Below, piece after piece: positions 2,696 through 46,516 of a stretch of DNA of 64,000 bases. The translations under genes and the position numbers were made by a program. Within the stretch, counting starts at the first letter, position 1, and each line of letters opens with the position of its first letter. The notes beneath the pieces are model-generated. The model ran no database searches, was not told where the DNA came from, and was given only the letters and a program-made list of their open reading frames with translations. Origin of the DNA: Deltaproteobacteria bacterium (GTDB lineage Bacteria; Desulfobacterota; Binatia; UBA9968); contig JAUYJC010000630.1 in the NCBI GenBank assembly GCA_030688735.1, positions 2,262-66,261 on the forward strand, in the 5' to 3' direction.

Positions 2696-2770
2696 ACGGC
2701 GGAAAGGCTACGGTGTTCCTGCGATATTTTTATGGTATTTTTTAGGTGTTTTTCTTGTTTATTATTGGGA

Positions 2771-3022
2771 GATTTGCCAAATGTCACTCTGAGGGCTTGA
2801 CCGATTTGCCAAAAGGGTCGCCGAAAGGGTTGATCGATTTGCCAAAAGTGTCGTCTTGGGTGGCCGAAAAATCGGCGACCTCGACCGGGCCGGCGACCTC
2901 GACCGGGCCGGCGACCGAGCCTATAGAGGATCGGCCCCCCGTGACACCTTGGCGCGCACTGACCTAATCCGCTACACCTATAAAATCAGGTACTTAGGCC
3001 AGGATCGTGACACCTTGGCGCG
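2771..3022. repeat. short direct repeats in the divergent intergenic region (candidate operator/promoter region)
   Basis: GATTTGCCAAA x3 (2771, 2803, 2836). 18-bp CGGCGACCTCGACCGGGC in tandem (2873-2920). GTGACACCTTGGCGCG x2 (2941, 3007). Confidence 0.8.
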
Positions 3023-3160
3023 ATCGGCGGTTTTGGGGCCTAATAATTCCGCGGGGTTACACTGGCCTGTGGCCTGCATATCCCTGTGATTTTTGGACCC
3101 GGGCGATTCTGCCCACCTGCAACCCCGCGAAAACACGCGGAAAACACTGAGGAGCACTAG

Positions 3161-4837
3161 ATGGCCGAAATCACATGGATAGGACCACGAGGATCATGGG
3201 CGCGGCTGGTTCGCGAGGTAGACCCGGGGCTCGGGGTAGGCGTCAAGAGCTTTCCGGGCCGCTACCTCACTAGCGGCACGCCGAGCGATCTACCTCCGGG
3301 CGCTGTGGTGCTCCGAGTAGGTGCAGGAGTAGCGCAGCTCGGAGTGGTGCGGGACGGTGCACTACGATTCGAGCCCGCCCGCTATGATTGGCGCCTGGAT
3401 AGCGCCGCGATCGTCACCCGGGCGCGCGCCCTACTTGCGGCCACCACTCCGGCCACCACTCCGGCCGCCGCTAGCGGCGTCGCAGCGTCGCTGACCGAGA
3501 TCGCCGCCGAGTCTCGGACGACGGCAGCGGTCACGGGTCGGCGCTGGATGCGCGGCGCGACGCGGCGCGGCGCGGCGCCGGTAGAGGATACCGGCGGCCG
3601 TGACACGTACCGGCGCCTAGTCCTCGCAGGCGGCGCCGCTGAGGGTAGCGGCGCGCTGACGGGCTGGGCGGGGCTCGGATCGGTACCACGCTCGCTGATC
3701 TCCGAGGCCCTTGAGGCCGCGGGGCTACCGGCCGGATGGGCCCCCGCGGCAAAGAGCGACGTAGCGCACGCTGGTCACGTCTTAGGCACGCTGAATGGCC
3801 ACGGATCGGGGCTGATCTCGCGCCGATGTGGGGCGGCAAAATGGGATCGCGGTGTCTACGAAAAACGACGTGAGTACCGCGCTCGCTGGACCGTCCAGCG
3901 AGCCATATCGACCGCTGAAGTAGGCGATCAGGGCGGCCCTGTGATCCTCACGGCCGAGCTGAGGGACGGTGACAGCACGCTACACTTAGATGGTCCGTCA
4001 GAGATGGTCGCTGAGCTGCGCGAACGCTATCTAGCGAGAATTGCAGCCGAAACCCTGAATGCGGGGGACGTGACTACCTGGCTCGCGCGCACCCTGCGCG
4101 ATCGGTGTGGCGCGGCGCGGTACGCGGTAGGCTACTACCTACCAGCCGGCGGCCGTGAGATCGCCGAGCGACTCGTAGCTGCGATGTCCGTCCGGTGGGG
4201 CGCGGGCTGGGCGAGCCCGCTCCTGCCGGTCGCGTCAGGCCCCGAGCTTGTCGCGGGGCTCGCCAGGGGATTTTTCGACGAGATCTCCAGGGTCGCGGGC
4301 TCGCTGGCGACCGCTCGCGAGGCCGCTAGGGCTGCGAGCCCACCCGCGAGCGAAATCAGTGCCGCGATAGCCGCGCGACTGCTGCGCGACCTCGGCGACG
4401 TGTCCGAGCGAGCGGACGCCTACCGTGTGCTAGTCGGCGCGGATGCGCTCGCTCCAGCGGTCGCCGAGCTAGCCAGGCTACACGCCGAGCTAACTCCCCT
4501 AGCGGACGGGGCCTCGGTCCGATTCGCCCTGCTCGAACTAGACGACTCACCGGCCGAAATTGCCGCATCCGAGCGAGTGTCGCCGGCTATCCGGGCTGCC
4601 GAGGTCGCGAGCGAGGCTAGGCGGGCTGAAGCTCCGGCCGCCACTCCGGCCGCCACTCCGGCCGCCGAGGCTGAGCGGGACACGTACCGCGCGGCACTCG
4701 CCCAGTCGGGGATGACCTCAGAAAAGTTCCGGGCCGCATGTGAAGCGTACCTCAGCGAAGATCGCAGCCCCGCGGCCTGGGTACGCGCTGCACAGATAGT
4801 CACACGTCCCTCGGGGCGAGAAATCGAGCTGGACTAG
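3161..4837 (+). CDS. Ala/Arg-rich hypothetical protein
   Basis: 558-aa ORF with GAGGAG upstream. Strongly GC-rich codons. Internal ATTPATTPAA / PAATPAATPAA repeats near both ends. Confidence 0.7.
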   Translation: MAEITWIGPRGSWARLVREVDPGLGVGVKSFPGRYLTSGTPSDLPPGAVVLRVGAGVAQLGVVRDGALRFEPARYDWRLDSAAIVTRARALLAATTPATTPAAASGVAASLTEIAAESRTTAAVTGRRWMRGATRRGAAPVEDTGGRDTYRRLVLAGGAAEGSGALTGWAGLGSVPRSLISEALEAAGLPAGWAPAAKSDVAHAGHVLGTLNGHGSGLISRRCGAAKWDRGVYEKRREYRARWTVQRAISTAEVGDQGGPVILTAELRDGDSTLHLDGPSEMVAELRERYLARIAAETLNAGDVTTWLARTLRDRCGAARYAVGYYLPAGGREIAERLVAAMSVRWGAGWASPLLPVASGPELVAGLARGFFDEISRVAGSLATAREAARAASPPASEISAAIAARLLRDLGDVSERADAYRVLVGADALAPAVAELARLHAELTPLADGASVRFALLELDDSPAEIAASERVSPAIRAAEVASEARRAEAPAATPAATPAAEAERDTYRAALAQSGMTSEKFRAACEAYLSEDRSPAAWVRAAQIVTRPSGREIELD

Positions 4838-4914
4838 CGAGCCTCAGAGCCCCGGGGCGCAAGCTCGGGGGCTGTAGGGTCCGCTGGACCGATCACATCT
4901 AAAGGAGCACACCG
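4838..4914 (+). promoter_or_regulatory. intergenic hairpin cassette, copy 1
   Basis: Stem-loop 4848-4873 (GCAA loop), conserved box GTAGGGTCCGCTGGAC 4874-4889, SD AAAGGAGCACA 4901-4911, ATG 4915. The same layout recurs at 6004 and 6865. Confidence 0.8.
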
Positions 4915-5298
4915 ATGAGCGACCGAAAATCCCTTACTCACTACATCGTGCAAACTGCATCCGCGCAGATGCCCGGCAAATGCCGGGGTCATTATCGCCG
5001 AGTGGCCGTCCTCGAAGTCCACTACGACCTCACACGAGTCTCGCAGATCTCCGACCGCGCGCGGGGCTGCGTCCGCATTGTGCAGACGTGGGAGCGTCTA
5101 TCGGTCGGGCGCACCATGAAATCTGCCTACCAGCGCGCACTGGTCGAGGCAGAGACACTCGCGGGCGCCCTCAACGCCGGGCTCCCGAAGACCCTAGCCT
5201 TCGCGGTCGCTGATCGCGCGGTCGATCTGTACAGTGACGGGATTTTTTCGCTCCCGGAGAGCCTCGAGATCGCCGTGCGGCGCGAGGGTGCCCGATGA
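4915..5298 (+). CDS. hypothetical protein
   Basis: 127-aa ORF behind cassette copy 1. Its first five codons (MSDRK) are shared with the gene at 6081. Confidence 0.7.
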   Translation: MSDRKSLTHYIVQTASAQMPGKCRGHYRRVAVLEVHYDLTRVSQISDRARGCVRIVQTWERLSVGRTMKSAYQRALVEAETLAGALNAGLPKTLAFAVADRAVDLYSDGIFSLPESLEIAVRREGAR

Positions 5299-33536: not shown

Positions 33537-34092
33537 GAGCTACTACGATAGCGTTTGGCCTGAAAATGCGAGGACCGAAGGCAGATATGTACTAGTTCGG
33601 AGTCATTATACTCCACTACTCTTTGAGTGGATCGCGCAAACAAAAGGCGATCTGCTCGGCGAGCCCGAGAAGATTTGGCTCTTCCTACTTGACGACCCGA
33701 CGTGGTTTCGTCGCCTCACGCCGGAATCGTGGCACAACCTCAATAGCCCTCAAGGGGGTATTCCTAAGAACGTGTGGGCAGGGGTAAAAATTGACAGTCC
33801 CGAGGACATCCAAAACATCCCGGAACTCCGACGCATCCGAGCCCGTCGACTTTTTCTGGAGTGCAACCTCGAAGAGAATGGATCAAATGAAGCACTATCC
33901 AAAGAGCTTAACGCCTGGCGGTGTAAGTCCTGCGGAATGCGCGGCGAAGAAAAACAGCGCGATTGCCCGAACATTCATCTCTGTGACCGTGACACGCTCT
34001 CGCCACAAATCGAGTGGATTGTGGGCAAGGCGGCACACACGATAGCTACTCCTTTGAGCATCATACTTTGGCCGGAGCGACCCAATGACTGA
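33529..34092 (+). CDS. hypothetical protein
   Basis: ATG 33529 inside listed ORF 33367..34092; product starts MTESYYDSVWPEN. Confidence 0.6.
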   Translation: MTESYYDSVWPENARTEGRYVLVRSHYTPLLFEWIAQTKGDLLGEPEKIWLFLLDDPTWFRRLTPESWHNLNSPQGGIPKNVWAGVKIDSPEDIQNIPELRRIRARRLFLECNLEENGSNEALSKELNAWRCKSCGMRGEEKQRDCPNIHLCDRDTLSPQIEWIVGKAAHTIATPLSIILWPERPND

Positions 34093-35725
34093 GACTGAGC
34101 GAGAAATCTGGTACGCCATTCCCACCTGCAACGTCCCACGGGCACAGGCCACGCTGAAGAAGTGGAAAGAGAAGGGCTACAAGACCATCGCACTATTGGA
34201 CGGCAAGGTCGAAGATCACGCAGCAGTCGGCGCCGACGTGGTGTTGTTTCGCGACAAGTACGAGGGCTATTACGTCTCTGCGCGGCTCATGGCGCAGAAG
34301 CTCAGAGAGAAGCTTGGCGACTACCCCGACATCATGGTCTGCGGCGGCGACGACATGGACCCCGATCCGAAACTCCACGCGCAAGCCATTGCGGCTCAGT
34401 GCTACGAGAAGTTCCCTGACGGCTACTTTGTCATGCAGCCCATCGGCGACGACCTGCAAGGCACTGACAAGATCTGCGGCTCGCCATGGTTCGGTAAGGA
34501 GTGGCTCAAGAGGTCCTACAACGGCAACGGCCCCTTCTGCGGGCAATACTTCCAATTCTACGGTGATGAAGAACTCAGGTACGTCGCCGACATACGCAAG
34601 GTGCTCTGGCAGCGACCTGATCTCGCGCAGCGTCATCACCACTGGCTTCGCCCCGGCATCAAGAAAGAGAAGTACCAGTCGGTGAACGAGGTGAAGTATT
34701 GGGAAAAGGACAAGGCCACGTTCGCCGGACGCCAGACAAAAGGCTTCCCCGGATCATATCGGCAGTGTACGTTCCCTGCCGGCGCTAAGGTTGTGGTGAC
34801 CGGCGCTGGTGGCTTTATTGGTCACCACCTATCAAATCGACTCGTCGCCGAAGGCGCCGATGTTTTCAGTATTGACCGCAAGCACCCCGAGTGGGGCGAT
34901 CACCCTTCGCGGGATTTCATGCTTGTCGATTTGCGTTGCATCGAAGATTTCCTCAGTGGTCAAGACTTTGTTTTCCATCTCGCTGCGGAAATGGGTGGTA
35001 TCGGCTACATCGAGAACAACAAGGGAGACATCGTATCGAGTTCAACTCGCATAGATCTGAACGTCCTTGATGCCTCCTATCGGAGCAAGGTCGGTCGATT
35101 CCTCTATACGTCCTCAGCGTGTGTCTATCCAGGCTACCGTCAGAACGATCTCAATAACCCCGGGCTCAGAGAGTCGGACGCCTACCCCGCCGACGCGGAA
35201 GACGGCTACGGCTGGCAGAAGCTCTACACCGAGCGCCTGTGTCGCCACTACCGCAAGGACTTCGGCCTCGATACTCGCATCGCGCGGCTGCACAACATCT
35301 TCGGTCCGCTGGGGACCTACGATGGCGGCCGAGAGAAGGCGCCGGCTGCCATGTGTCGTAAGATCGCCATGGCCAAGGACGGGGACCCTATCGAGGTCTG
35401 GGGCGATGGCAAACAGACACGATCCTACTGCTACGTCGACGATTGCGTTGAGGGTCTGATTCGCCTCATGCTCTTCGACTACAACAAGCCCATCAACATC
35501 GGCACCGATGAAATGGTGTCGGTCAACAAGCTCATCGAGCACGTCGAGGCCGTGTCCGGTAAAAAGGTCAAGCGGGTCTACGACCAGACCAAGCCTAAGG
35601 GCGTTCGTGGGCGCAACGCCAACCTTGATCTTGTCAAAGTTGTCCTCGACTGGTCGCCGACGCGCACCCTCAAAGAAGGGCTGGCAGAGACCTACCCTTG
35701 GATTGCAGAGCAGGTACAGAAGTGA
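34085..35725 (+). CDS. fusion protein: unknown N-terminal domain + GDP-mannose-3,5-epimerase-like SDR domain
   Basis: From ~aa 235: VVVTGAGGFIGHH (Rossmann), SSACVYP, YGWQKLYTE (YxxxK), REKAPAAMCRKIA, WGDGKQTRSYCYVDDCVEG. This closely resembles GME-type epimerases. Confidence 0.8.
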   Translation: MTETEREIWYAIPTCNVPRAQATLKKWKEKGYKTIALLDGKVEDHAAVGADVVLFRDKYEGYYVSARLMAQKLREKLGDYPDIMVCGGDDMDPDPKLHAQAIAAQCYEKFPDGYFVMQPIGDDLQGTDKICGSPWFGKEWLKRSYNGNGPFCGQYFQFYGDEELRYVADIRKVLWQRPDLAQRHHHWLRPGIKKEKYQSVNEVKYWEKDKATFAGRQTKGFPGSYRQCTFPAGAKVVVTGAGGFIGHHLSNRLVAEGADVFSIDRKHPEWGDHPSRDFMLVDLRCIEDFLSGQDFVFHLAAEMGGIGYIENNKGDIVSSSTRIDLNVLDASYRSKVGRFLYTSSACVYPGYRQNDLNNPGLRESDAYPADAEDGYGWQKLYTERLCRHYRKDFGLDTRIARLHNIFGPLGTYDGGREKAPAAMCRKIAMAKDGDPIEVWGDGKQTRSYCYVDDCVEGLIRLMLFDYNKPINIGTDEMVSVNKLIEHVEAVSGKKVKRVYDQTKPKGVRGRNANLDLVKVVLDWSPTRTLKEGLAETYPWIAEQVQK

Positions 35726-36075
35726 GTTATTCCCAGGGACGTGAAGAAGAGATCCTCATCACTCAGGTGCAGCGTCTCGGCATCAAGAAAGGCAACTTTC
35801 TCGACATAGGCGCCTACACAGGCATCAAGTTCTCCAACAGCCGGCACTTGCTTGAGAATGGTTGGAGTGGCACCTTGATCGAGCCCTCGCCCTCGGTGTT
35901 TCCAAAGCTCAAAGAGCTGTACAAGGATCGAAAAGACGTTCTGACAATCAACGCCGCGCTCGTCGTGAGCCTGCCACCCATCAACTCCAACCATCCGCCC
36001 GGACATATCAAATTTTGGGACGCGAGCGGCAACGCTTCAGGCTCAAGTACGTGTGGCATGATGGCAACAACATGA
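35722..36075 (+). CDS. FkbM-like SAM methyltransferase, short or truncated
   Basis: SQGREEEIL...GNFLDIGAYTG...SNSRHLLENGWSGTLIEPSP matches only the N-terminal half of this family. 117 aa, GTGA-overlapped start. Confidence 0.5.
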   Translation: MSYSQGREEEILITQVQRLGIKKGNFLDIGAYTGIKFSNSRHLLENGWSGTLIEPSPSVFPKLKELYKDRKDVLTINAALVVSLPPINSNHPPGHIKFWDASGNASGSSTCGMMATT

Positions 36076-36085
36076 TCTGGGCAAA

Positions 36086-36808
36086 ATGAATAGACCACTT
36101 GTCAGAATGCTATGGTGCCTGTCACCGAACTTCGGCGACGAGCTTGCACCGTATCTCGCGAGGCGAGCCGGCAAAGAGCCCGCCTATACCCTATCTCCGG
36201 GACGCTACGTGCTCTCGGGTTCGATGCTCAATAACTGCACCAAGAACGACACAGCATGGGGGTGTGGAATCGCTCATGAGCAACACCGGGTACCGGCAGG
36301 TATCACAATTCTGAGCGTTCGAGGGCCGAAGTCACTATATCGAGCCCGTGAGCACAACAATAATGTGCCTGAAGTCATCGCGGATTCTGGGTTCATTCTA
36401 CCACGCATCTATACAAACTCTCTTCAGGGCGAAAACCTGGAAGGTGAAGTCATCGTCCCTCATTACGTTGACTTTGAGAAGCTCACAGCCGCAAACCCAA
36501 ATAAACACGTCGTCAACATTCTTGATCCCGTTGAGAAGGTACTCGATCAAATTCTAGCGGCTGAGATCATCAGGTCGAGTTCACTTCACGGGCTCGTCGT
36601 TGCCGCGGCCTATGGTCGTAAGTTTCAGTGGATTCCGAGCGCGTTGGTCAATGGTGTTGAGTACAAATATGACGACTTCTACCAATCAATGGGGCTCAAG
36701 CTCTCTGAAGACGTTGTGTCATGTCCAGAGTCTAAACAGCTTGACCTGATTCAAATCGCATCACAAACGTTCCCATTTCCTGAAATCTTCAAGTCAAAGG
36801 CAGTATGA
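36086..36808 (+). CDS. polysaccharide pyruvyl transferase-like protein
   Basis: SPNFGDELAPYL near the N-terminus and RSSSLHGLVVAAAYG near the C-terminus, as in the PS_pyruv_trans family. Confidence 0.5.
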   Translation: MNRPLVRMLWCLSPNFGDELAPYLARRAGKEPAYTLSPGRYVLSGSMLNNCTKNDTAWGCGIAHEQHRVPAGITILSVRGPKSLYRAREHNNNVPEVIADSGFILPRIYTNSLQGENLEGEVIVPHYVDFEKLTAANPNKHVVNILDPVEKVLDQILAAEIIRSSSLHGLVVAAAYGRKFQWIPSALVNGVEYKYDDFYQSMGLKLSEDVVSCPESKQLDLIQIASQTFPFPEIFKSKAV

Positions 36809-37644
36809 GCAACATCGTCGCCATGATCATGGCTCGCAATGAAGAATGGATTCTCGAAGCGAGCATCAAAGCCGCTCGCAAGCTCTGTGACAAGATTGTC
36901 GTCTTCGATCACGCGAGCACCGACCGAACCCGAGAAATTGCTCTGAGCTGCGCCGATGGCGTTGACGGTACGACGGACCCTGTTTGGCGAGAGATGGACT
37001 ACCGGCAACAGATGTTTGAACTCACGGCTGGGCTCAAACCTACTCATCTTGCTTTCATCGACGCTGACGAGATTGTCACCAACAACTGTGTCGCTTCCTA
37101 TCGCAAAGCCATTGAGAACCTCACCCCTGGGCAGGTCGCCATTGCGCCCATGGTACCAGTATGGCGAACCCTCGACCAGTACCGCAAAGATGCCTCGGTC
37201 TGGTCAACAGCTGGCATCTCCCTCGCGGTCGGTTACAAGGCGGATCTGAACTGGAAGCCACGAGCGCATGACGGCTATCAGCATCACGCCAGAGAGCCCA
37301 AAGGCATGACCGAACGTGTGCCCATCGGGCAGCGGTACCAGGGTGGCGTGATGCACTTGCAGTTCGCCTGTCACCGTCGCCTGAAGGCCAAACATACTTT
37401 CTACAAGATGATGGAGCGCATTACTACACACAAGCCTAGCGACATCATCGAACGCCAATACAACCAAGCGATGGACGAGACAGGTATCAACTACGAGCCC
37501 TTACCAAAGTCCTGGTGGGACCCCGAGGTCAAAGCACTTATCGATCTGGATCACGTCCCGTGGCATGAGAAACAGTGCCAAGAATATTTAGATAAGTACG
37601 GGCGAAAATACTTCGGTGGCCTAAACCTTTTTGGTGTTGTATGA
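36805..37644 (+). CDS. family 2 glycosyltransferase
   Basis: IVAMIMARNEE...IVVFDHASTDRT...FIDADE (DxD). Confidence 0.7.
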   Translation: MSNIVAMIMARNEEWILEASIKAARKLCDKIVVFDHASTDRTREIALSCADGVDGTTDPVWREMDYRQQMFELTAGLKPTHLAFIDADEIVTNNCVASYRKAIENLTPGQVAIAPMVPVWRTLDQYRKDASVWSTAGISLAVGYKADLNWKPRAHDGYQHHAREPKGMTERVPIGQRYQGGVMHLQFACHRRLKAKHTFYKMMERITTHKPSDIIERQYNQAMDETGINYEPLPKSWWDPEVKALIDLDHVPWHEKQCQEYLDKYGRKYFGGLNLFGVV

Positions 37645-38099
37645 ATAAGCGCAGACCGTGGCATCTTAGATTCTGGGAAAAAGTTGATCAGAGTGGTGAC
37701 TGCTGGATATGGACAGCCAGCACCAAAAATGGGTACGGGCAGTTTCAACTAAACAGGGATATTTTGTATGCTCATCGTCTTTCGTGGGAGCTTGTAAATG
37801 GCACCGTCCCATTAGGTAAATTCATCTGTCACACCTGCGATGAAAGAAGGTGTGTGAACCCGAGTCATCTATGGGCCGGCACGCACTTGGACAATCAACG
37901 TGACTGCTGGCGTAAAGAACGTTCGCACTTCCAAAAAGCAGGTAACCCGAATCAGAAATTATCTGATCAACAAGTGCGTGAGATTCACCAACTACTCAAC
38001 ACAGTAAAGATTACCCGCGAAATCGCATTTCAATATGGTGTGACAACATCACAAATCAGGCACATCGCCACGGGTTTCTCGCGTTCGGGGGTCGTGTGA
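37641..38099 (+). CDS. HNH homing endonuclease (paralogue of 28053)
   Basis: FWEKVDQSGDCWIW...NGYG...AHR...CHTCDERRCVNPSHLWAGTHLDN. Confidence 0.9.
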   Translation: MNKRRPWHLRFWEKVDQSGDCWIWTASTKNGYGQFQLNRDILYAHRLSWELVNGTVPLGKFICHTCDERRCVNPSHLWAGTHLDNQRDCWRKERSHFQKAGNPNQKLSDQQVREIHQLLNTVKITREIAFQYGVTTSQIRHIATGFSRSGVV

Positions 38100-38395
38100 A
38101 GAAGATACGTGAGGTCTCCGATTACTTTGTTGGACACAAAGCTGTCATAGAAGAGGTCTGTGACGAGTGCGCCGGCACCGGGCACGTACACACCGGCTCC
38201 TTGGGCGGCGGCACGGAAGGAATAACCTGTTGCTGGGAATGCAACGGCTCCGGGCAGCTCGCTGAGCCTCGGCCTTACCACGCCATCCCCCACGGGGATC
38301 ACTGCCCGTCATCATGCGAGCACATTGATCCGCCAATTACCATGTACCAGTTTGCTAACCTCATCACTCGCGACGTGCCGCCGCGGCATGAGTGA
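38096..38395 (+). CDS. DnaJ-type CxxCxGxG zinc-finger protein
   Basis: CDECAGTG and CWECNGSG repeats. 99 aa, GTGA-overlapped start. Confidence 0.6.
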   Translation: MKKIREVSDYFVGHKAVIEEVCDECAGTGHVHTGSLGGGTEGITCCWECNGSGQLAEPRPYHAIPHGDHCPSSCEHIDPPITMYQFANLITRDVPPRHE

Positions 38396-38427
38396 CTCTG
38401 GTTGTGGATCAAAAAGAGGTTCAAGAA

Positions 38428-39096
38428 ATGACCCAACTCATTCTCGTCGTCGGCAACGGTCGTAGTGGCACCAACTTGCTCGGCAAGCTCATTGCCTCAC
38501 ACCCGGGTGTAGAAGGCTACATAGAGGAAGAGCCTATCTTTGGTCTTGTTACCAAAGCAGCCCTCTACAACGACGGGGACGCGCTCTACGCGGCGCGAGA
38601 GTGGTATGAGAGCAAACTCAAAGCCTGCACCAAGCCCTATTTGCTCGATAAGTCACACATGAATCTGTGGCTGGTCGAGAGGTGGCTGCGTGTGTTCCCG
38701 AACGTGAAAATCATTGGCATCCGTCGTGATGCGTACAACACGATCCTGAGTGCCCGTGAGCACATGGGAGTGCAGAGCCACTACCTGCGACTTGATCTCG
38801 TTGGCAAAGACTGTCGCGCCCTCGGGCTCAAAGCTAAAGACTGGTCACGATCACTCACAGCCAAACTCTTGCTGCGCTGGCAAGCACACGAGGATGAGTT
38901 TCGCCGGCTGTCGTGGATACCCACGATTGAGTACCGAAACCTTGTTCGTGATCCTGGTAACGCATTGGAGAAACTCGGGCTTGGCAATCTCCCAAAGGGT
39001 ATTGACTGCTCTATCATCAAACCCCCGACCAAGCGGCCGTTTGATAAAGCACTCATCGACGAGATCATCTTTTACGCTTCTCAGCATGAAGACTGA
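38428..39096 (+). CDS. sulfotransferase
   Basis: VVGNGRSGTNLLGKL (5'-PSB loop) and IGIRRDAYNTILS (3'-PB motif). ATG 38428 with AGAGG upstream, inside listed ORF 38392..39096. Confidence 0.7.
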   Translation: MTQLILVVGNGRSGTNLLGKLIASHPGVEGYIEEEPIFGLVTKAALYNDGDALYAAREWYESKLKACTKPYLLDKSHMNLWLVERWLRVFPNVKIIGIRRDAYNTILSAREHMGVQSHYLRLDLVGKDCRALGLKAKDWSRSLTAKLLLRWQAHEDEFRRLSWIPTIEYRNLVRDPGNALEKLGLGNLPKGIDCSIIKPPTKRPFDKALIDEIIFYASQHED

Positions 39097-39173
39097 AATA
39101 CTCAGTCGTAAAATCTATATTTGAGCACGCATCCCTAATTACTCAATAATATCAATAGTTTAAGTATATTGAT

Positions 39174-39202
39174 TTGACTTTGTTGGTCGAGTGTAGTTAG
39201 GT
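39174..39202 (+). promoter_or_regulatory. candidate sigma70-like promoter in an AT-rich gap
   Basis: TTGACT, 17 nt, TTAGGT. This would place the transcript start at about the ATG at 39209 (a leaderless message). Weak -10. Confidence 0.3.
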
Positions 39203-39208
39203 GGCTGC

Positions 39209-39547
39209 ATGGGTGGCCCAAAACAGAGGAAAAAAGCGCCAAAACAGCTTGAAATCTCCGAAAGAGGGGTCAAGCGCCGCCGCGAGCTGGGGATCGACGC
39301 TCTCCTATCCGCGGCGGCCCGGAGCGACCTAGCACGAAAAAAGGCCGAATTGGGTACCCAAACAGAACCCGCAAAATCCACCTCTCAGCGTCACAGTCAA
39401 GAGGATGCGCGGGCTCCGCTGTGCGCGTGCGGACACTCGATGAAGTATTGGGGTCAGAGCGTACTCAGTCCGCTGTGGCAACTCTACGCCTATCGCTGCT
39501 TGTGTGGCAGCGTTGCGAATCTCAAAAGGGAGCGAGTAGCGGAATGA
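39209..39547 (+). CDS. basic protein with C-terminal zinc-ribbon-like motif
   Basis: 112 aa; KQRKKAPK...KRRRE N-terminus; CACGH...CLCGS. Confidence 0.6.
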   Translation: MGGPKQRKKAPKQLEISERGVKRRRELGIDALLSAAARSDLARKKAELGTQTEPAKSTSQRHSQEDARAPLCACGHSMKYWGQSVLSPLWQLYAYRCLCGSVANLKRERVAE

Positions 39548-39618
39548 GCGAACGGCTTTGCCTCGCGATCGGCGAGCCGGTGTGGTGTCACGATCGCAAA
39601 AACCGAAGGAAGAAAAAC

Positions 39619-39903
39619 ATGAGCAACACAAAGAAGAAAGCCACGGGCAGCACAAGCAAGAAGAAAGTCCAGCGTGGCGCCGCAAATCTCATCGGAAAAC
39701 AGGTCATGGTGTGGTGTGGGATCTACATCTATACCGGGGTCTTGGTCAGTGTGACCCCCGACGAACTCGTGCTCGACAATGCGTCGGTGGTCTACGAGAC
39801 GGGGCCACTGTGTGGCCCACCACAGACGGCCCAGAAGTTGCCAGCGCAGCTGTCGATCCGGCTCTCTGCGATCGAGTGCTATTACAAAGCACCACTATCG
39901 TGA
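39619..39903 (+). CDS. hypothetical protein (alternative start 39544)
   Basis: 94 aa from ATG 39619 (AGGAAG upstream); Lys-rich N-terminus. Its TGA overlaps the GTG of the first repeat gene. Confidence 0.55.
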   Translation: MSNTKKKATGSTSKKKVQRGAANLIGKQVMVWCGIYIYTGVLVSVTPDELVLDNASVVYETGPLCGPPQTAQKLPAQLSIRLSAIECYYKAPLS

Positions 39904-40172
39904 ACATCCCAAACAAACGCGCTAGGTGGCGGTCCGGGTCCGGATCTAAGTCCTGGTCCTGGTCCCGAACCCAGACCCGGTCCGGGTCCCGGTCCGGGTC
40001 CTGGTCCAGGTCCTGGTCCGGGTCCGGATCTAAGTCCTGGTCCTGGTCCCGAACCCAGACCCGGTCCGGGTCCTGGTCCGGGTCCTGGTCCAGGTCCTGG
40101 TCCTGGTCCGGGTCCGGGTCCTGGTCCCGGTCCTGGTCCCGGTCCAGGTCCTGGTCCGGGTCTCAGTCCTAG
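39900..40172 (+). CDS. repeat protein 1: VNIPNKRARWR-(S-G/W/R)n, coding frame uncertain
   Basis: GTGA overlap with the upstream stop. Low-complexity Ser/Gly/Trp/Arg product. Confidence 0.35.
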   Translation: MNIPNKRARWRSGSGSKSWSWSRTQTRSGSRSGSWSRSWSGSGSKSWSWSRTQTRSGSWSGSWSRSWSWSGSGSWSRSWSRSRSWSGSQS

Positions 40173-40198
40173 TTCCAGTCCAAATCCAAGGTGTCGCC

Positions 40199-40411
40199 AT
40201 GAGTACCCCGAACAAACGCATTAGGTGGCGGTCCCGGTCCGGGTCTCAGTCCGGGTCCCGGTCCGGGTCCCGGTCCTGGTCCCGGTCCGGGGCCGGGGGC
40301 GGGGCCGGGTTCTGGTCCGGGTCCTGGTCCGGGTCCTGGTTCTGGTCCGGGTTCTGGTCCGGGTTCGGGTCTCAGTCCGGGCCCCGGTCTTTGAGGGTGT
40401 TGCTGCCATGA
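40199..40411 (+). CDS. repeat protein 2: MSTPNKRIRWR-(S-G/W/R)n, coding frame uncertain
   Basis: ATG start; the stop overlaps the next ATG (ATGA). Confidence 0.35.
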   Translation: MSTPNKRIRWRSRSGSQSGSRSGSRSWSRSGAGGGAGFWSGSWSGSWFWSGFWSGFGSQSGPRSLRVLLP

Positions 40412-40617
40412 GCACTCCCAACAAACGCGCTAAGTGGCGAACCCGGTCCGGGTCCGGGTCCTGGTCCTGGTCCCGGTCCGGGTCTCAGTCCGGGTCCCAG
40501 TCTCGGTCCTGGTCTCGGTCCTGGTCCCAGTCCTGGTCCGGGTCCGGGTTCTGGTCCCGGTCCCGGTCCCGGTCCGGGTACGGGTCCTGGTCTGAATCCA
40601 AGGTGTCGCTGCCGTGA
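40408..40617 (+). CDS. repeat protein 3: MSTPNKRAKWR-(S-G/W/R)n, coding frame uncertain
   Basis: ATGA-coupled start; the stop overlaps the next GTG. Confidence 0.35.
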   Translation: MSTPNKRAKWRTRSGSGSWSWSRSGSQSGSQSRSWSRSWSQSWSGSGFWSRSRSRSGYGSWSESKVSLP

Positions 40618-40820
40618 GTACCCCGAACAAACGCGCTAAGTGGCGGACCCGGTCCGGGTCCGGGTCCTGGTCCTGGTCCTGGTCCGGGTCTCAGTCCGGG
40701 TCCCGGTCCGGGTCCGGGTCCTGGTCCAGGTCCTGGTCCTGGTCCGGGTCCGGGTCCTGGTCCCGGTCCTGGTCCCGATCCTCCGGGTTTTCAGAGGTGT
40801 CGTGGTCATCACAGCACTAG
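40614..40820 (+). CDS. repeat protein 4: MSTPNKRAKWR-(S-G/W/R)n, coding frame uncertain
   Basis: GTGA-coupled start. Ends 22 nt before the TnpB-like gene. Confidence 0.35.
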   Translation: MSTPNKRAKWRTRSGSGSWSWSWSGSQSGSRSGSGSWSRSWSWSGSGSWSRSWSRSSGFSEVSWSSQH

Positions 40821-40842: not shown

Positions 40843-41665
40843 ATGAGCAAAATTCTAGTTTACAAATTCGGAGCCCGCTATCCATCCGCAGAGTCTCGCG
40901 CGCTGTTGCTCGCACAAATGCGGATGGGGCATGAGTATTACAACCACCTCGTCGAAATGGAAAACGCTCGACGTAAGGCGGCGCAACGCTCGTGCAGATC
41001 GTATTCGTAGCACCCGCGACGTGATGCGCAACGAGCTGCTTGAGTGGCTCGGCGCCGATGAGAGTGAGTCTTCAAATCTCGTGCGTGATCGGGCGGGACG
41101 ACTCGCCATTTTCCGCGGTTTGCTGCGCGTGGTAGGAATCGATACCGACCAGGCGACAATTGATCGGCTGCAAGAGCACGTCCACCGAGATCGGCATCTG
41201 GCTCAGTACGAGAGCGGCAACCGCCGGCGCGCCGAGTTGCACAGGCGCAATGAGTTCCGCAAATTTGTTCGCGTGCTACGCCGGCGCTATCTCTGCGTCA
41301 TGATCAAGACGGACGCGATCAAGGAGATGAAGGAAAAAGGTGATCTCCCACAACCCGCGCGGAAACAGGGACAGATTGCGGCTCCGGGCGAGATGTTGGC
41401 AGAGCTACGCTCTGTCTTCCTCGACGGCGGCGCAATCATCGTCGTCGAGGGTGAGTACACGTCACGGGATTGCGTGAAGTTGGAGTGCGGGCATCGCAAC
41501 GAGGGCTACGCGGGTCCTGTGCTGATTTGCGAGCAGTGTGGTGACACGAGGGATCGGGATGAGGTATCTGTGGAGAATATGATGCGGCTGCTGGCGAGGG
41601 GGGGAGTACAAAATCAAGACCGCTCGCAAACGGGTGGCCAGGTTCGCGAAACGACACAAGAGTAG
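40843..41665 (+). CDS. hypercompact TnpB/Cas12-like (RuvC + zinc-ribbon) protein split over two frames (40843..41010 and 40931..41665)
   Basis: N-terminus MSKILVYKFGARYPSAESRALLLAQMRMGHEYYNHLVE. VVGIDTD (RuvC-I-like). C-terminus IIVVEGEYTSRDCVKLECGH...CEQCGDTRDRDEVSVENM (TNB finger + RuvC-III). A frame change is needed near 40975-41010. The CRISPR array follows immediately. Confidence 0.65.
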
Positions 41666-41673
41666 CGAGAGCA

Positions 41674-42064
41674 GTGACAATGCCAGCTCGATGGCTTAGA
41701 GATCGAGACATGCCGTCGAGCTTCGCGCCATCCACGCTGAGGTCGTGACAATGCCAGCTCGATGGCTTAGAGATCGAGACAGCTGCAAGGTGTCGACCGC
41801 TTTCCCGCACCCCCTGTGACAATGCCAGCTCGATGGTTTAGAGATCGAGACCACTGGAACAATCGCCGCCTGAGCGCGAGGGAGCTTGTGACAATACCAG
41901 CTTGATGGTTTAGAGATCGAGACTCGTCGGTACCGTTCACCGCCTCTACCACGACAGGTGACAATGCCAGCTCGATGGCTTCGTGATCGAGACCGAGAAG
42001 TCTAGGGATCTCGGGGTGAAGCAAGGGGTAGTAATGCCAGCTCGATGGCTTCGTGCACTTCCGT
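41674..42064 (+). CRISPR. CRISPR array: five 36-bp repeats plus a degenerate sixth (a seventh remnant at 42071-42106)
   Basis: GTGACAATGCCAGCTCGATGGCTTAGAGATCGAGAC at 41674, 41745, 41816, 41888, 41958. Unique spacers of 35, 35, 36, 34 and 35 bp. Repeats decay away from the TnpB-like gene. Confidence 0.85.
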
Positions 42065-42086
42065 CAAAAGTAGTAATGTCAGCTTG

Positions 42087-42413
42087 ATGCTGGATTTAGT
42101 CGTGAACAAGACACCACCACTGTTCTGTCCTAAGTGCAAAACTAAAACCCGGCTCATCTCGACCGGCATCTGCTATCGCTGCAACTGGTGGGCGAAGGTC
42201 ATGGGCAAAAAGCCGCCAAAGCGAACCCGCCCGGCGCCCTTGCCACTGAAGCCGCGCAAGCGTAAGAACCCCCCGGGCAAGCCGGGTCGACCGCGCGGCA
42301 AGGTCCGCATCCCGGGGTTGATTCAGTGCGCGGGATGGGCGTGGTCGATAGGCCGGCGATGCTCACGGATGGCAGAGCTTGGTGGTGATTACTGTTGGGA
42401 GCACAAGAGATGA
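42087..42413 (+). CDS. zinc-ribbon protein with Pro/Lys/Arg-rich linker
   Basis: CPKCK...CYRC, then KKPPKRTRPAPLPLKPRKRKNPPGKPGRPRGK. Start uncertain (42045, 42087 or GTG 42102); all three lie inside degenerate repeats. Confidence 0.55.
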   Translation: MLDLVVNKTPPLFCPKCKTKTRLISTGICYRCNWWAKVMGKKPPKRTRPAPLPLKPRKRKNPPGKPGRPRGKVRIPGLIQCAGWAWSIGRRCSRMAELGGDYCWEHKR

Positions 42414-45240: not shown

Positions 45241-45395
45241 AAGTCATCGAAGATGTTCGCGGCGAGACCATCAGCGTCGTCACAATTTCTAACACTATTC
45301 AGATCGGACTATACGATGAGTCTGTGGAGCTTGACGAAGACGGGGTTAACAACTTAATCACCGCGCTACAAACCGCGAAGGAAGAGCTAGAATGA
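45237..45395 (+). CDS. small hypothetical protein (52 aa)
   Basis: ATGA overlaps at both ends. Under 60 aa, so not in the ORF track. Confidence 0.45.
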   Translation: MKVIEDVRGETISVVTISNTIQIGLYDESVELDEDGVNNLITALQTAKEELE

Positions 45396-46516
45396 GAGTC
45401 AACTACCACTGCCATTTCGGCCAGCCCACCGGCTACGCCCGAGCTGCTCACGACAACATCATGGCGTTGCTCTCAGTCGGCGTGAGCGTGAAGATCTGGC
45501 CGTTCGATTCATATGCTTGCATCGACGGGCTTGAGTCACGCTACATGAAGTTGACCAACTACCTCGCCGCCGATGACGATGATCCCTTCAAAGATGAAGG
45601 CGTTCACGTCTATCACGAGACCCCGGGGAGGCTCAAAGAGCTGTTGGACATCGACGCGCTCCCCGGGCCAGCAGTCGCTTTCACGACTTGGGAGACTTCC
45701 CAGCTGCCAGAGGAGTTTGTCGACGCTCTTTTGTCGTTCGAGAGTGTCATCGTACCTTCGGTCTTTTGTCAACATGCCTTGTCGAAAAGCGGTGTGAAGT
45801 CTGAAGTGGTTCCGCACACCCTCGATTTCGACTTCTGGGAGCCCTCAGACAAGCCCAAGGCGTCGCCGTTCACCTTCTACACCATCGGCGCCTGGAACGA
45901 GCGCAAGAACGTCGGGGCGCTGCTCAAGGCGTACCTGGCCGCGTTCCGCCGGGACGATGAGGTCAAGCTCGTCATCCACTCGATCGATCCCGACATCTTC
46001 GAGACCAAACGCATCCTCAGCCAGAGCGGCATCCCGGAAGGTCAATTGCCGCGACTCTTGATCACAGATCACTTCCTCTCCGAAGCCGCACTTTTGTCTA
46101 TCCACCAGGAATCACACTGTTTCGTGTCGATGACCCGGTGCGAGGGGTGGGGGCTCGGCGCCTTCGAGGCGCTGGCCTGCGGCAACCCCGTGCTCATGCC
46201 GGGCTACGGCGGACAGTGGGACTTTCTGCCGACGCAGAGTCACAAGGTGCAGTACACGACGACGCCTTGTTTCCCTTCTGATCGCATCGTCATCCGCGAT
46301 GACGTGGTCACGGGCATCCGCAACGTACCCAAGGGCGTCGCGTGCGATCAAGACTGGGCCGAGCCCAGCATCCACGACATGAAAGTGCTCATGCGGCGAG
46401 TGTTCACTAGCCGGGGAGAGGATATTCTTCCTATCCGAAAGAAGCTCGGCTCTCTCTACAACTACAACAAAGTCGGTGAGCGGCTCGCTTCGGTCCTCGC
46501 CTACACGGGGAAATAG
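45392..46516 (+). CDS. GT-B glycosyltransferase (GT1/GT4-like)
   Basis: RCEGWGLGAFEALACGNPVLMPGYGG contains the E-x7-E motif. 374 aa. Confidence 0.8.
   Translation: MRVNYHCHFGQPTGYARAAHDNIMALLSVGVSVKIWPFDSYACIDGLESRYMKLTNYLAADDDDPFKDEGVHVYHETPGRLKELLDIDALPGPAVAFTTWETSQLPEEFVDALLSFESVIVPSVFCQHALSKSGVKSEVVPHTLDFDFWEPSDKPKASPFTFYTIGAWNERKNVGALLKAYLAAFRRDDEVKLVIHSIDPDIFETKRILSQSGIPEGQLPRLLITDHFLSEAALLSIHQESHCFVSMTRCEGWGLGAFEALACGNPVLMPGYGGQWDFLPTQSHKVQYTTTPCFPSDRIVIRDDVVTGIRNVPKGVACDQDWAEPSIHDMKVLMRRVFTSRGEDILPIRKKLGSLYNYNKVGERLASVLAYTGK

What the first reader, a model, noticed from the sequence alone, without database searches (positions are those of the whole stretch)
39900..40820. Four tandem genes made of the hexanucleotide GGTCCN, with conflicting coding-frame signals
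Each unit has three parts: a conserved 33-bp head, roughly 130-240 bp of nearly pure GGTCCN repeats, and a short conserved tail (AATCCAAGGTGTCGC). Unit 1 carries an in-phase 84-bp duplication. All six frames are open inside the tracts.

Two lines of evidence point to different frames.
- The frame with start codons yields four paralogues, MSTPNKRAKWR-(Ser-Gly/Trp/Arg)n. Their starts overlap the preceding stops as ATGA/GTGA, beginning with the stop of the upstream gene at 39901. This looks like translational coupling.
- The variable hexamer position N, and the GGT-to-GGG changes in unit 2, fall on wobble positions of a Gly-Pro frame (GGT CCN) on either strand. That is what selection on (Gly-Pro)n would produce. 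This frame has no start codon and opens directly after in-frame TGA codons, so it would need readthrough or frameshifting.

I do not recognise either product type as a known phage protein family. The block sits immediately upstream of the TnpB-like/CRISPR locus.
Basis: seen in the sequence. Interest (0 to 1): 0.85.

Follow-up and report, generated by a model that had tools for sequence, protein, structure and literature searches.

The report
Phage Sm-like gene with serine-repeat peptides
The GGTCCN block is four small, back-to-back genes for disordered (Ser-Gly/Trp/Arg)n peptides, not Gly-Pro, and they belong with the upstream Sm-like protein gene to a widespread, unannotated two-gene module of phages and some bacteria whose function is unknown.

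Summary
Window 39900-40820 holds four tandem units (head, GGTCCN tract, tail); 72 tract matches were found against 0.02 expected by chance.

The frame conflict is resolved by comparison. The upstream gene (39619-39903) encodes a protein with a predicted Sm-like fold and about 550 relatives at 50% identity. In 85 of 86 related loci read, this gene is followed at once by a short ORF, usually overlapping as ATGA or GTGA. That ORF has a short head, usually basic, then a hexamer tract.

The hexamer differs by lineage (GGTCTN, GGTCGN, GGTCAN, AGCNGG, GGTCCN). Only one frame keeps its meaning throughout: Ser alternating with Gly, Arg or Trp. All six Ser codons occur across lineages. The "Gly-Pro" frame exists only in the TCC lineages.

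Nitrospinaceae chromosomes carry a 51-codon version that is not repetitive at the DNA level, with differences of 33/43/125 at codon positions 1/2/3, as expected for a real coding gene.

Tract length varies in multiples of 6 nt between near-identical phages. One to four tandem peptide genes occur elsewhere too.

No link to the neighbouring Cas12f-like/CRISPR locus is conserved. No Pfam, PHROG, NCBIfam or PADLOC family and no paper was found. Function is inferred only: disordered Arg/Trp-rich tails acting with an Sm-like ring on nucleic acid.

The parts
39544..39903 (+). Gene for the Sm-like partner protein. A gene caller's product is 119 aa from 39544. The conserved core is covered by the 94-aa version from ATG 39619, which follows the SD-like GAAGGAAG.
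   Evidence: 30 homologues with invariant YIYTG / ASVVYETG / DAQKLP. The AF2 model has pLDDT 84 and pTM 0.71, and its top PDB fold matches are all Sm/LSm proteins. There are 551 clusters at E<=1e-3. Sequence is shown.
39900..40172 (+). Peptide gene U1: GTG start overlapping the upstream TGA (GTGA), head VNIPNKRARWR, then 79 residues of Ser-X repeat, ending at TAG 40170-40172.
   Evidence: Translation. The first 60 nt are confirmed by the independent contig L239.
39931..40098 (+). Two copies of an 84-bp in-frame duplication inside U1 (39931-40014 and 40015-40098).
   Evidence: 83 of 84 positions identical; TRF period 84.
40173..40202 (+). Cut-off tail of U1 after the premature TAG. It stays in frame (FQSKSKVSP) up to TGA 40200-40202, which overlaps ATG 40199. 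It contains the SD-like AAGGTG at 40188-40193.
40199..40411 (+). Peptide gene U2 (70 aa): MSTPNKRIRWR plus Ser-X repeat, with tail SLRVLLP. The SD-like GAGGGTG at 40393-40399 serves U3.
40408..40617 (+). Peptide gene U3 (69 aa): ATG in an ATGA overlap with the U2 stop. The SD-like AAGGTG at 40600-40605 serves U4.
   Evidence: Its head differs from the U4 head only at synonymous third positions in its non-start codons (AGC/AGT, ACT/ACC, CCC/CCG, CGA/CGG), read.
40614..40820 (+). Peptide gene U4 (68 aa): GTG in a GTGA overlap with the U3 stop, ending at TAG 40818-40820. Its tail keeps a relic SD (GAGGTG, 40794-40799) and a degenerate head remnant.

Best explanation
SHOWN. The block is four tandem, co-oriented small genes read in the start-codon frame. 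Each encodes a short basic head (MSTPNKRAKWR) followed by a low-complexity tail in which Ser alternates with Gly, Trp or Arg (codons TCC-NGG). Together with the gene just upstream, which encodes an approximately 90-aa protein with a predicted Sm-like fold, they form a conserved module: [Sm-like protein][1-4 coupled Ser-X peptide genes]. This module occurs in hundreds of uncultured phage lineages, in integrated elements, and as a stable chromosomal pair in Nitrospinaceae.

INFERRED from the patterns. In phages the tail is encoded by a homogeneous hexamer that expands and contracts in multiples of 6 nt, by slippage or unequal recombination. That turnover erases synonymous variation. Selection keeps Ser at every second position and a Gly/Arg/Trp mixture at the others. 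This is why the only variable base is the first base of the NGG codons, and why a spurious 'Gly-Pro wobble' signal appears in the TCC lineage.

MECHANISM (inferred; about 0.3 probability on its own). The peptides are intrinsically disordered polycations with Arg/Trp 'stickers' and Ser/Gly 'spacers'. Their conserved head docks them to the Sm-like ring, or to the same nucleic acid. The complex then behaves like an Sm/LSm ring with basic low-complexity tails supplied in trans, binding or condensing RNA (or ssDNA) during the early or replicative phase of infection. Start/stop overlap keeps the partners in step.
For: Coding frame within the window:
- Differences among the four heads fall mainly at third codon positions of this frame. 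Outside the ATG/GTG start codon, all four U3/U4 head differences are synonymous.
- Only this frame has starts and SD-like sites.

Comparative evidence:
- The upstream protein has 30 homologues, 93 viral loci, 20 MAG loci and 551 clusters at 50% identity.
- In the 86 loci analysed, 72 have a long Ser-X tract directly downstream. Of the other 14, 13 show the start of one, or a short one; 7 of these are contigs that end within 100 nt. Only L138 lacks it.
- The dominant Ser codon per locus is TCT in 29, TCG in 25, AGC in 10, TCA in 7 and AGT in 1. The window and L017 use TCC.
- Pooled X residues are G 649, R 467, W 450 and L 77.
- Nitrospinaceae orthologues (51 codons, mixed codons) differ at codon positions 1/2/3 by 33/43/125.
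- In-frame length polymorphism with identical flanks occurs in L139/140, L194/195 and L197/198.
- Tandem copies occur elsewhere: 8 loci have 2, 1 has 3 and 3 have 4.
- A second, distantly related partner family (hhalign probability 81%; 347 members) has the same coupled Ser-X ORF.

Fold and disorder:
- The partner model matches Sm/LSm proteins at TM 0.6-0.8.
- The peptide model has pLDDT 52 and pTM 0.22.

Genomic setting:
- The module sits among early, replication and recombination genes in related phages.
Against: - There is no experimental evidence that the peptides accumulate, and none on function.
- Binding between the head and the Sm-like ring was not tested.
- The Sm2 'RG' motif is not evident, so RNA binding is not assured.
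- Gly is GGG in 92% of cases in phage tracts, against 19% GGG in the window's other genes. I attribute this to concerted evolution, because Nitrospinaceae orthologues lack the bias. An RNA-level constraint in phages is not excluded.
- U1 carries a premature TAG.
- Some assemblies show frame slips inside tracts (L127, L236).
- The exact tract lengths in the window rest on a single assembly. Another assembly broke there.
Confidence: 0.8

Rival explanations
1. The tracts are translated as (Gly-Pro)n on either strand, after readthrough of TGA 39901 or frameshifting. The variable N and the GGT-to-GGG changes would be silent wobble positions.
For: Both GP frames are stop-free in all four tracts, and N falls on the third position of CCN in both. 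Short GGTCCN runs elsewhere in viral contigs mostly encode GP linkers inside large proteins: the GP frame is the longest spanning ORF in 72 of 121 tracts.
Against: Neither GP frame has a start codon. In relatives of the same module the hexamer is GGTCTN, GGTCGN, GGTCAN or AGCNGG, so this frame would read Gly-Leu, Gly-Arg and so on, and is not conserved. Head substitutions are synonymous in the Ser-X frame, not in the GP frame. The other wobble position of the GP frame (the T of GGT) is almost invariant, which GP-level selection does not predict.
Confidence: 0.02
2. The repeats act as DNA or RNA and the ORFs are incidental. For example, they could be an array of binding sites for the neighbouring small protein (centromere- or iteron-like), or a periodic NGG RNA bound by the Sm-like ring.
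For: A small nucleic-acid-binding-type protein lies next to a tandem array. GG at codon positions 2-3 of X is kept in about 83% of units, and Gly is GGG in 92%, far above genomic usage. Sm-type rings bind short repeated RNA motifs (established knowledge of Hfq/LSm).
Against: The only sequence feature shared by all lineages besides NGG is the meaning 'Ser', written with TCN or AGY codons. Start codons and stop overlap are conserved. Nitrospinaceae orthologues are non-repetitive, with third-position variation and even Gly codon use. Length changes always keep the frame and the C-terminal tail.
Confidence: 0.05
3. The module is coding, but the peptides are effectors in their own right. They could be Arg/Trp-rich membrane-active or toxic peptides, or decoys or inhibitors aimed at a host defence. 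The Sm-like protein would act as chaperone or antidote, and tract hypervariability would reflect an arms race.
For: Arg/Trp-rich cationic peptides are classic membrane-active agents (general knowledge). Tracts differ between contigs whose partner proteins are identical or near-identical. There is multi-copy amplification. In Nitrospinaceae the pair sits beside a divergent Xre-type HTH gene, as many toxin-antitoxin-like pairs do.
Against: There is no hydrophobic segment or signal peptide. The module lies among early and replication genes, not lysis genes, and on the opposite strand to the lysozyme genes in L130 and MW202825. There are no PADLOC hits. Hypervariability is expected from slippage alone.
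Confidence: 0.12
4. The Ser-rich repeats are substrates for the neighbouring sugar and sulfate enzymes (epimerase, pyruvyl transferase, GT2, sulfotransferase, GT4), giving an O-glycosylated or sulfated serine-rich repeat protein.
For: (Ser-X)n is the repeat type of bacterial serine-rich repeat glycoproteins (general knowledge). The window has a sugar-modification cluster at 34085-39096 and a GT4 gene at 45392-46516.
Against: These neighbours are not conserved. Related loci show methyltransferase, HNH, RadC, ligase, exonuclease and lysozyme genes instead. The sulfotransferase ORF found only the window's own phage (L239) among the 118 related loci. The peptides have no secretion signal or anchor.
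Confidence: 0.04
5. The block is an accessory or leader of the adjacent Cas12f-like/CRISPR locus, or it is an assembly artefact.
For: It lies 23 nt upstream of the Cas12f-like ORF, with no predicted terminator between them. Repeats of this kind break assemblies, and many contigs end in them.
Against: None of 118 related loci has a homologue of the Cas12f-like ORF near the module. The module recurs in more than 100 independent assemblies, including Mb-scale contigs. Unique heads and tails anchor the four units.
Confidence: 0.03

Closest known systems
Eukaryotic Sm/LSm proteins with basic low-complexity tails (SmB, SmD1, SmD3 RG tails; LSm4 RGG tail) and bacterial Hfq with its disordered C-terminal region
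   Same: There is an Sm-type fold, predicted here, plus a flexible, Arg/Gly-rich, low-complexity extension. Both are expected to deal with nucleic acid.
   Different: Here the tail is a separate, translationally coupled gene present in 1-4 copies. It is Ser-alternating and Trp-rich, and hypervariable in length. There is no sequence homology to Sm/Hfq detectable by HMMs. The Sm2 motif is not evident. Ring formation and RNA binding are untested.
LSm-like fold early proteins of T4-type phages (GoF, MotB.1, Frd.2; PMC12152347)
   Same: They are small phage early-region proteins with a predicted LSm-like fold and a suspected RNA role.
   Different: They belong to different sequence families, and no coupled repeat peptide is described in that paper's abstract and outline. 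No T4-like record matched: tblastn against 50,697 phage records found only one metagenomic record.
RS domains of SR proteins and RGG/RG motifs; sticker-and-spacer disordered regions of the FUS type
   Same: They share a dipeptide-repeat architecture with Ser and Arg. Arg plus an aromatic residue is interspersed with Ser/Gly. Disorder is predicted.
   Different: The setting is prokaryotic or viral. The aromatic residue is Trp instead of Tyr. The molecule is a stand-alone 30-120-aa peptide. No RRM or kinase context is present, and phase separation was not tested.
Serine-rich repeat glycoproteins of Gram-positive bacteria (GspB, Fap1 type)
   Same: (Ser-X)n dipeptide repeats encoded by homogeneous, length-variable DNA repeats.
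   Different: Those are very large, secreted, cell-wall-anchored adhesins with X = Ala/Val/Thr/Glu, and they have dedicated SecA2/GtfAB loci. None of these features is present here.
Simple-sequence contingency loci and C9orf72-type hexanucleotide repeats
   Same: A hexanucleotide tract that changes length readily and is open in several frames. The C9orf72 analogy (Gly-Pro among possible products) probably prompted the GP idea.
   Different: Unit length is a multiple of three, so slippage changes length and not frame; there is no on/off switching. Comparative data single out one frame.

Membership tests
Module defined here: Sm-like partner + coupled (Ser-X)n peptide gene(s) | An upstream gene of the YIYTG / ASVVYETG / DAQKLP family. 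| tested here: met
   The window protein aligns with 30 homologues at 34-49% identity and carries the invariant residues.
Module defined here: Sm-like partner + coupled (Ser-X)n peptide gene(s) | A downstream ORF that starts at or next to the partner's stop codon. | tested here: met
   GTGA at 39900-39903. In relatives, 35 of 72 overlap as ATGA/GTGA and 25 of 72 lie within -10..+12 nt.
Module defined here: Sm-like partner + coupled (Ser-X)n peptide gene(s) | A short basic head with an aromatic residue (K-x-K-[WY]-R type), then Ser alternating mainly with Gly/Arg/Trp. | tested here: met
   Window heads read PNKRAKWR. Odd positions are Ser in 102 of 125 cases. Even positions are G 40, W 34, R 27. 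Relatives show G 649, R 467, W 450.
(Gly-Pro)n or collagen-like repeat protein | The Gly-Pro reading frame has a start and is conserved in homologous loci. | tested here: not met
   There is no start in either GP frame. The frame reads Gly-Leu, Gly-Arg or Ala-Gly in relatives.
Sm/LSm/Hfq superfamily (for the partner protein) | An N-terminal helix followed by five strongly bent beta-strands. | tested here: met
   The AF2 model shows H11-22 and five strands. Foldseek top hits are all Sm/LSm, with E 2.5e-4, TM 0.6-0.8 and rmsd about 2 A. This rests on a prediction, not a solved structure.
Sm/LSm/Hfq superfamily (for the partner protein) | Sm1 and Sm2 sequence motifs, or a significant profile match. 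| tested here: inconclusive
   No Pfam, PDB-sequence or NCBIfam match. By eye there is an Sm1-like G-x-L-x-G-V-N...L-x-D-A pattern but no Sm2 'RG'.
Sm/LSm/Hfq superfamily (for the partner protein) | Hexameric or heptameric ring formation and RNA binding. | not testable with these tools
   Only monomer prediction was available. Natural tandem double-domain relatives exist (P0032, P0033, P0103), which fits oligomerisation but does not prove it.
Serine-rich repeat glycoproteins | A signal peptide, a cell-wall anchor, a large size, and an accessory Sec/Gtf locus. | tested here: not met
   The products are 68-90 aa and consist only of head plus repeat. Sugar-enzyme neighbours are not conserved in related loci.
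RiPP precursor arrays | Conserved leader plus core peptides, next to a conserved modifying enzyme. | tested here: not met
   The only conserved neighbour is the Sm-like protein. Flanking genes differ between loci.
CRISPR/TnpB accessory element | Conserved co-occurrence with a Cas12f/TnpB-like gene or a repeat array. | tested here: not met
   tblastn of both Cas12f-like ORFs against 118 related loci gave no hit.
Phase-variable contingency locus | Repeat-number change shifts the reading frame or promoter spacing. | tested here: not met
   The unit is 6 nt, and observed length differences are 18, 42 and 84 nt with the frame and tail kept.

The most novel reading that the evidence does not exclude
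The module may be a minimal, self-contained condensate-forming system. An Sm-like ring would carry, in trans, several Arg/Trp-sticker and Ser/Gly-spacer tails. Their number (1-4 genes) and length (slippage-prone hexamers) would be tuned rapidly by the phage, to organise or protect viral RNA or replication intermediates. A domesticated, stabilised version would serve Nitrospinaceae cells. A related possibility is that the phage tracts are doubly constrained, as protein and as periodic NGG RNA bound by the Sm-like ring for autoregulation.
Probability: 0.2. Interest if true: 0.85.

Novelty: categorically new. Interest (0 to 1): 0.68.

Why it matters
The finding turns an odd repeat into a defined, testable gene pair that is widespread. 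There are about 550 partner-protein clusters at 50% identity, plus a second related family. The pair occurs in phages and in a bacterial family, yet it is missing from the Pfam, PHROG, NCBIfam and PADLOC libraries searched here.

It is a clean natural case of a protein whose conserved property is a composition rule (Ser at every second residue; Gly/Arg/Trp between) and not a sequence. That rule is written with all six Ser codons in different lineages.

It shows how concerted evolution of a coding hexamer can mimic a selection signal in the wrong frame.

If the Sm-like ring and the tails work together on RNA, this would be a prokaryotic or viral counterpart of tailed Sm/LSm proteins, and a compact model for low-complexity tails.

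In practice, these tracts break short-read assemblies of many phage genomes and are often left unannotated.

Tried and rejected
- Head motif search. The pattern AACAAACGCNNTARGTGGCG in IMG/VR gave 5 hits, all chance matches without repeats.
- GGTCCN x5 scan of IMG/VR. It gave at least 120 loci, mostly 30-54-bp linkers inside large ORFs, so the hexamer alone is not diagnostic. It did yield the two analogous long tracts, L017 and L109.
- Pairwise BLASTP. The window partner against the L017 and L109 partners gave nothing. A profile comparison gave 81% probability for L017 and only 11% for L109, so I do not count L109 as a member. L109 shows a Thr-[R/W/G] repeat after a small gene on the other strand.
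- Rfam and tRNA scans of the window gave nothing.
- Promoter and terminator scan found nothing inside the block.
- Pfam, PHROG, NCBIfam and PADLOC searches, and a PDB sequence search for the partner and for two peptides, gave nothing significant.
- GenBank phages. Only one metagenomic record (MW202825.1) carries the partner gene, and it is unannotated there.
- Literature. Peptide strings gave 0 papers. Keyword searches found nothing on this module. The nearest paper concerns T4 LSm-like proteins.
- Programmed -1 frameshift fusing the Sm-like protein to the repeat. I considered and rejected this: there is no consistent slippery site before the stop, several loci have 20-70-nt gaps before the peptide ORF, and no fused protein appears among the 9 long or multi-stretch relatives inspected.
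- A co-fold of partner and peptide could not be submitted with the tools available.
Full report
**1. What is in the sequence**

Window 39900-40820 (+ strand) contains four head-to-tail units:
- U1 39900-40172
- U2 40199-40411
- U3 40408-40617
- U4 40614-40820

Each unit opens with GTG or ATG and an 11-codon head ([V/M]-[NS]-[IT]-P-N-K-R-[AI]-[RK]-W-R). It then runs through 134-237 bp of GGTCCN hexamers and ends in a short tail. The tail carries an SD-like AAGGTG, GAGGGTG or GAGGTG for the next unit.

The tract is far beyond chance. There are 72 matches to GGTCCNGGTCCNGGTCC (up to 1 mismatch), all on the + strand between 39949 and 40781, against 0.02 expected. The 84-bp duplication in U1 is exact at 83 of 84 positions.

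- Only three of the six frames are stop-free in all tracts.
- U2's ATG does not overlap U1's actual stop. U1 has a TAG at 40170-40172, but its frame continues in phase to TGA 40200-40202, which does overlap ATG 40199.
- The 15-nt tail is exact only after U1 and U3.

An independent assembly of the same phage (L239) is identical to window 37544-39960 and then ends inside the tract. The block's beginning is therefore confirmed, but its exact lengths rest on one assembly.

**2. Which frame is read: evidence inside the window**

Only the frame TCC-NGG has start codons and SD-like sites. In that frame the heads of U3 and U4 differ, in their non-start codons, at four positions: AGC/AGT, ACT/ACC, CCC/CCG and CGA/CGG. 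All four are synonymous third positions. That is the signature of purifying selection on this frame. Neither Gly-Pro frame has a start.

**3. Which frame is read: evidence from relatives**

The gene just upstream (94 aa from ATG 39619; a gene caller's version is 119 aa from 39544) has 30 homologues of about 85 aa. They share invariant YIYTG, ASVVYETG and DAQKLP motifs. Scans found 93 relatives in viral contigs, of which 80 were read. They also found 20 in genome bins and 4 in metagenome contigs. A full HMM search gives 551 clusters at 50% identity.

I analysed 86 loci in a systematic way.
- 72 have a long alternating-Ser tract directly downstream.
- 13 of the other 14 show the start of one or a short one; 7 of these are contigs that end within 100 nt.
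- Only L138 lacks it.
- The ORF start overlaps the partner's stop as ATGA/GTGA in 35 of 72, and lies within -10..+12 nt in 25 more.

The hexamer is not the same everywhere. The dominant Ser codon per locus is:

| Ser codon | Loci |
|---|---|
| TCT | 29 |
| TCG | 25 |
| AGC | 10 |
| TCA | 7 |
| AGT | 1 |
| TCC | window and L017 |

. The window's closest relatives use TCT (L240, L241), AGC (L237) and TCG (L238).

The only meaning that survives across lineages is Ser alternating with X. Pooled X residues are Gly 649, Arg 467, Trp 450, Leu 77, and little else. A switch between TCN and AGY Ser codons cannot be explained by a DNA- or RNA-motif constraint.

**4. A non-repetitive version proves a real protein**

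In Nitrospinaceae/Nitrospinales genomes the pair sits at a fixed chromosomal place. That place lies between a divergent Xre-type HTH gene and convergent GBBH-like_N (DUF971) and Mrp/NBP35 genes.

There the coupled ORF is a 49-51-codon peptide, for example MKQRNRFRLRNSVMSASGRKSWANSWSGPFTMRYWRFSWSGSRSHSLSWAG. It is Ser/Trp/Gly/Arg-rich with a basic head, but not repetitive at the DNA level.

Four 51-codon orthologues differ at codon positions 1/2/3 by 33/43/125, with 97 synonymous and 71 non-synonymous codon differences. Gly codons are used evenly there (GGG 10, GGA 15, GGC 14, GGT 11).

**5. Why the false Gly-Pro signal arises**

In phage tracts each position of the hexamer except N is nearly invariant. 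In the window, Ser is TCC in 89 of 102 cases and Gly is GGG in 38 of 40. The window's other genes use 13% TCC and 19% GGG. Pooled relatives use NGG for 83% of X codons.

Near-identical phages with identical flanks differ by 18, 42 or 84 nt inside the tract. The simplest account, which is an inference, has two parts. Rapid expansion and contraction homogenises the unit and wipes out synonymous variation. Selection keeps a mixture of Gly/Arg/Trp, the only amino acids reachable by changing the first base of NGG. In the TCC lineage that base happens to be the third base of CCN in the other frame.

The Nitrospinaceae genes show that the NGG bias is not required by the family. An additional RNA-level role in phages is not excluded.

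**6. The partner protein and the peptide**

The AF2 model of the partner (pLDDT 84, pTM 0.71) is an N-terminal helix plus five bent strands. All top PDB matches are Sm/LSm proteins, with E from 2.5e-4, TM 0.6-0.8 and rmsd about 2 A. Matches among viral models are uncharacterised phage proteins and one annotated 'RNA binding protein'.

No sequence library recognises the partner. Natural tandem double-domain relatives exist.

The peptide model is unconfident (pLDDT 52, pTM 0.22), as expected for a disordered chain.

**7. The architecture is general**

A second partner family is distantly related to the first over the Sm-like core (hhalign probability 81%, E 1.2e-5) and has 347 members. It is also followed by a coupled Ser-[Gly/Arg/Trp] ORF:
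- L017 uses GGTCCN, as the window does.
- L244 has two tandem copies on a 2.5-Mb contig.
- L245 and L246 also carry it.

The heads in this second family are neutral, not basic.

Tandem amplification of the peptide gene, as in the window, recurs elsewhere. Of 73 loci, 8 have two copies, 1 has three and 3 have four; L142, for example, has four MTRGQKQKYRPW heads.

**8. Context**

The window is phage-like, with DNA polymerase, helicase and exonuclease PHROGs. Upstream of the module lie an epimerase/dehydratase, a pyruvyl transferase, a GT2 glycosyltransferase, an HNH endonuclease and a sulfotransferase. Downstream lie a small Cas12f1-like TNB ORF split over two frames and a 36-bp-repeat array.

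Neither neighbourhood is conserved. Related modules sit among methyltransferase, HNH, RadC, ligase, YqaJ-exonuclease and HTH genes, typically at the end of an early or replication block. No related locus has a homologue of the Cas12f-like ORF nearby. No promoter- or terminator-like site lies inside the block, so co-transcription with the Sm-like gene is likely and read-through into the Cas12f-like gene is possible.

**9. How it probably works**

What is shown:
- The coding frame.
- The coupling to the upstream gene.
- The conservation of the pair.
- The composition rule.
- In-frame length variation.

What is inferred:
- The peptides are disordered polycations with Arg/Trp stickers and Ser/Gly spacers.
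- The conserved head suggests a specific docking site.
- The invariant partner is an Sm-like, probably ring-forming protein.

I therefore favour, at about 0.3 probability, a complex that behaves like an Sm/LSm ring with basic low-complexity tails supplied in trans. It would act on RNA or single-stranded DNA early in infection, with stop/start overlap keeping production of the two partners linked.

The alternatives are set out with their tests in the rival explanations: peptides as toxic or anti-defence effectors with the Sm-like protein as chaperone, a dual protein/RNA function, a glycosylation substrate, and a CRISPR accessory.

**10. Comparison with what is known, and novelty**

The nearest analogues are the following:
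- Tailed Sm/LSm proteins and Hfq.
- The LSm-like early proteins of T4-type phages (PMC12152347).
- RS and RGG low-complexity domains.
- Serine-rich repeat glycoproteins.
- Hexanucleotide contingency repeats.

The locus is not a member of any of these by the features I could test (see the membership table). I found no family model, no annotation (only one unannotated metagenomic GenBank phage) and no paper. I therefore rate the module as a new kind of gene pair of unknown function. The window's instance is an ordinary, four-copy, TCC-codon member of it.

**Verdict**

The Gly-Pro and CRISPR-link ideas are rejected. The coupled Ser-X paralogue reading is upheld and generalised.

Noticed in passing
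window 40843-42089: A small Cas12f1-like TNB-domain gene is split over two overlapping frames (40843-41010 and 40931-41665; Pfam PF07282, E 6.7e-6). This could be a frameshift, a pseudogene or a sequencing error. It is followed by 6-7 direct repeats of about 36 bp spaced 70-72 bp apart (41674-42089), and the last two repeats are degenerate.
   Followed up: partly
window 34085-39096 and 45392-46516: A sugar-modification cluster in a phage-like genome. It holds an NAD-dependent epimerase/dehydratase with a 235-aa N-terminal extension, a pyruvyl transferase, a GT2 glycosyltransferase, an HNH endonuclease and a sulfotransferase. A GT4 'conflict-system' type glycosyltransferase lies further downstream.
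   Followed up: partly
window 39544-39680 (TRF repeat 39609-39662): Uniquely among the aligned family members, the window's Sm-like protein has a Lys-rich N-terminal extension (MSNTKKKATGSTSKKKVQRG). It is encoded partly by a 24-nt repeat (2.2 copies), where relatives have an acidic helix (EVxGEGL). The true start (39544 or 39619) is unresolved.
   Followed up: partly
window 40170-40202: An in-frame TAG truncates U1 nine codons before the conserved tail and uncouples its stop from U2's ATG. It is one base away from the recurrent CAG (Gln) and TGG (Trp) codons of the tracts. It could be a recent nonsense mutation, a sequencing error or a read-through site.
   Followed up: no
window 40159, 40242, 40368, 40481, 40687: The variant GGTCTCAGTCC (Ser-Gln-Ser in frame; it contains a GGTCTC site) recurs once or twice in every unit at similar relative positions. 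The units therefore share internal landmarks and are not pure hexamer runs.
   Followed up: no
L218-L222, L226-L228 (Nitrospinaceae/Nitrospinales MAGs), about 2300-5000 in each locus: A chromosomal version of the pair sits at a conserved place: a divergent Xre-type HTH gene upstream, and convergent GBBH-like_N (DUF971) and Mrp/NBP35 Fe-S carrier genes downstream. This suggests a domesticated or cellular role.
   Followed up: partly
L127 about 5375; L236 about 546-620; L182: Some tracts contain a 5-mer, or switch from a (Gly-Arg)n reading to the (Ser-X)n reading within one ORF. These may be real frame slips or assembly errors in the repeats. If real, Gly-Arg stretches are also made.
   Followed up: no
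L134 306-578: A second copy of the Sm-like gene starts right after the peptide gene on a 578-bp contig. This is either a tandem duplication of the whole module or an assembly loop.
   Followed up: no
L242 and L243 (marine metagenome contigs): A divergent module in which the Sm-like protein ends in an acidic tail (EEEEEDE). The coupled 89-aa peptide has the basic head but a non-repetitive Ser/Gly/Trp/Asp/Glu-rich body, so it is acidic and not basic.
   Followed up: no
L109 1813-2004 (minus strand reading): A GGACCN tract following a small gene on the minus strand reads as (Thr-[Arg/Trp/Gly])n with its own ATG. Its upstream protein matches the family profile only weakly (hhalign 11%), so this may be an independent or very distant analogue using Thr in place of Ser.
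   Followed up: partly
L133 1062-1292: One related phage contig carries a 76-aa Cas12f1-like_TNB fragment about 4 kb upstream of its module. It is not similar enough to the window's ORF to be found by tblastn and is probably a coincidence.
   Followed up: partly
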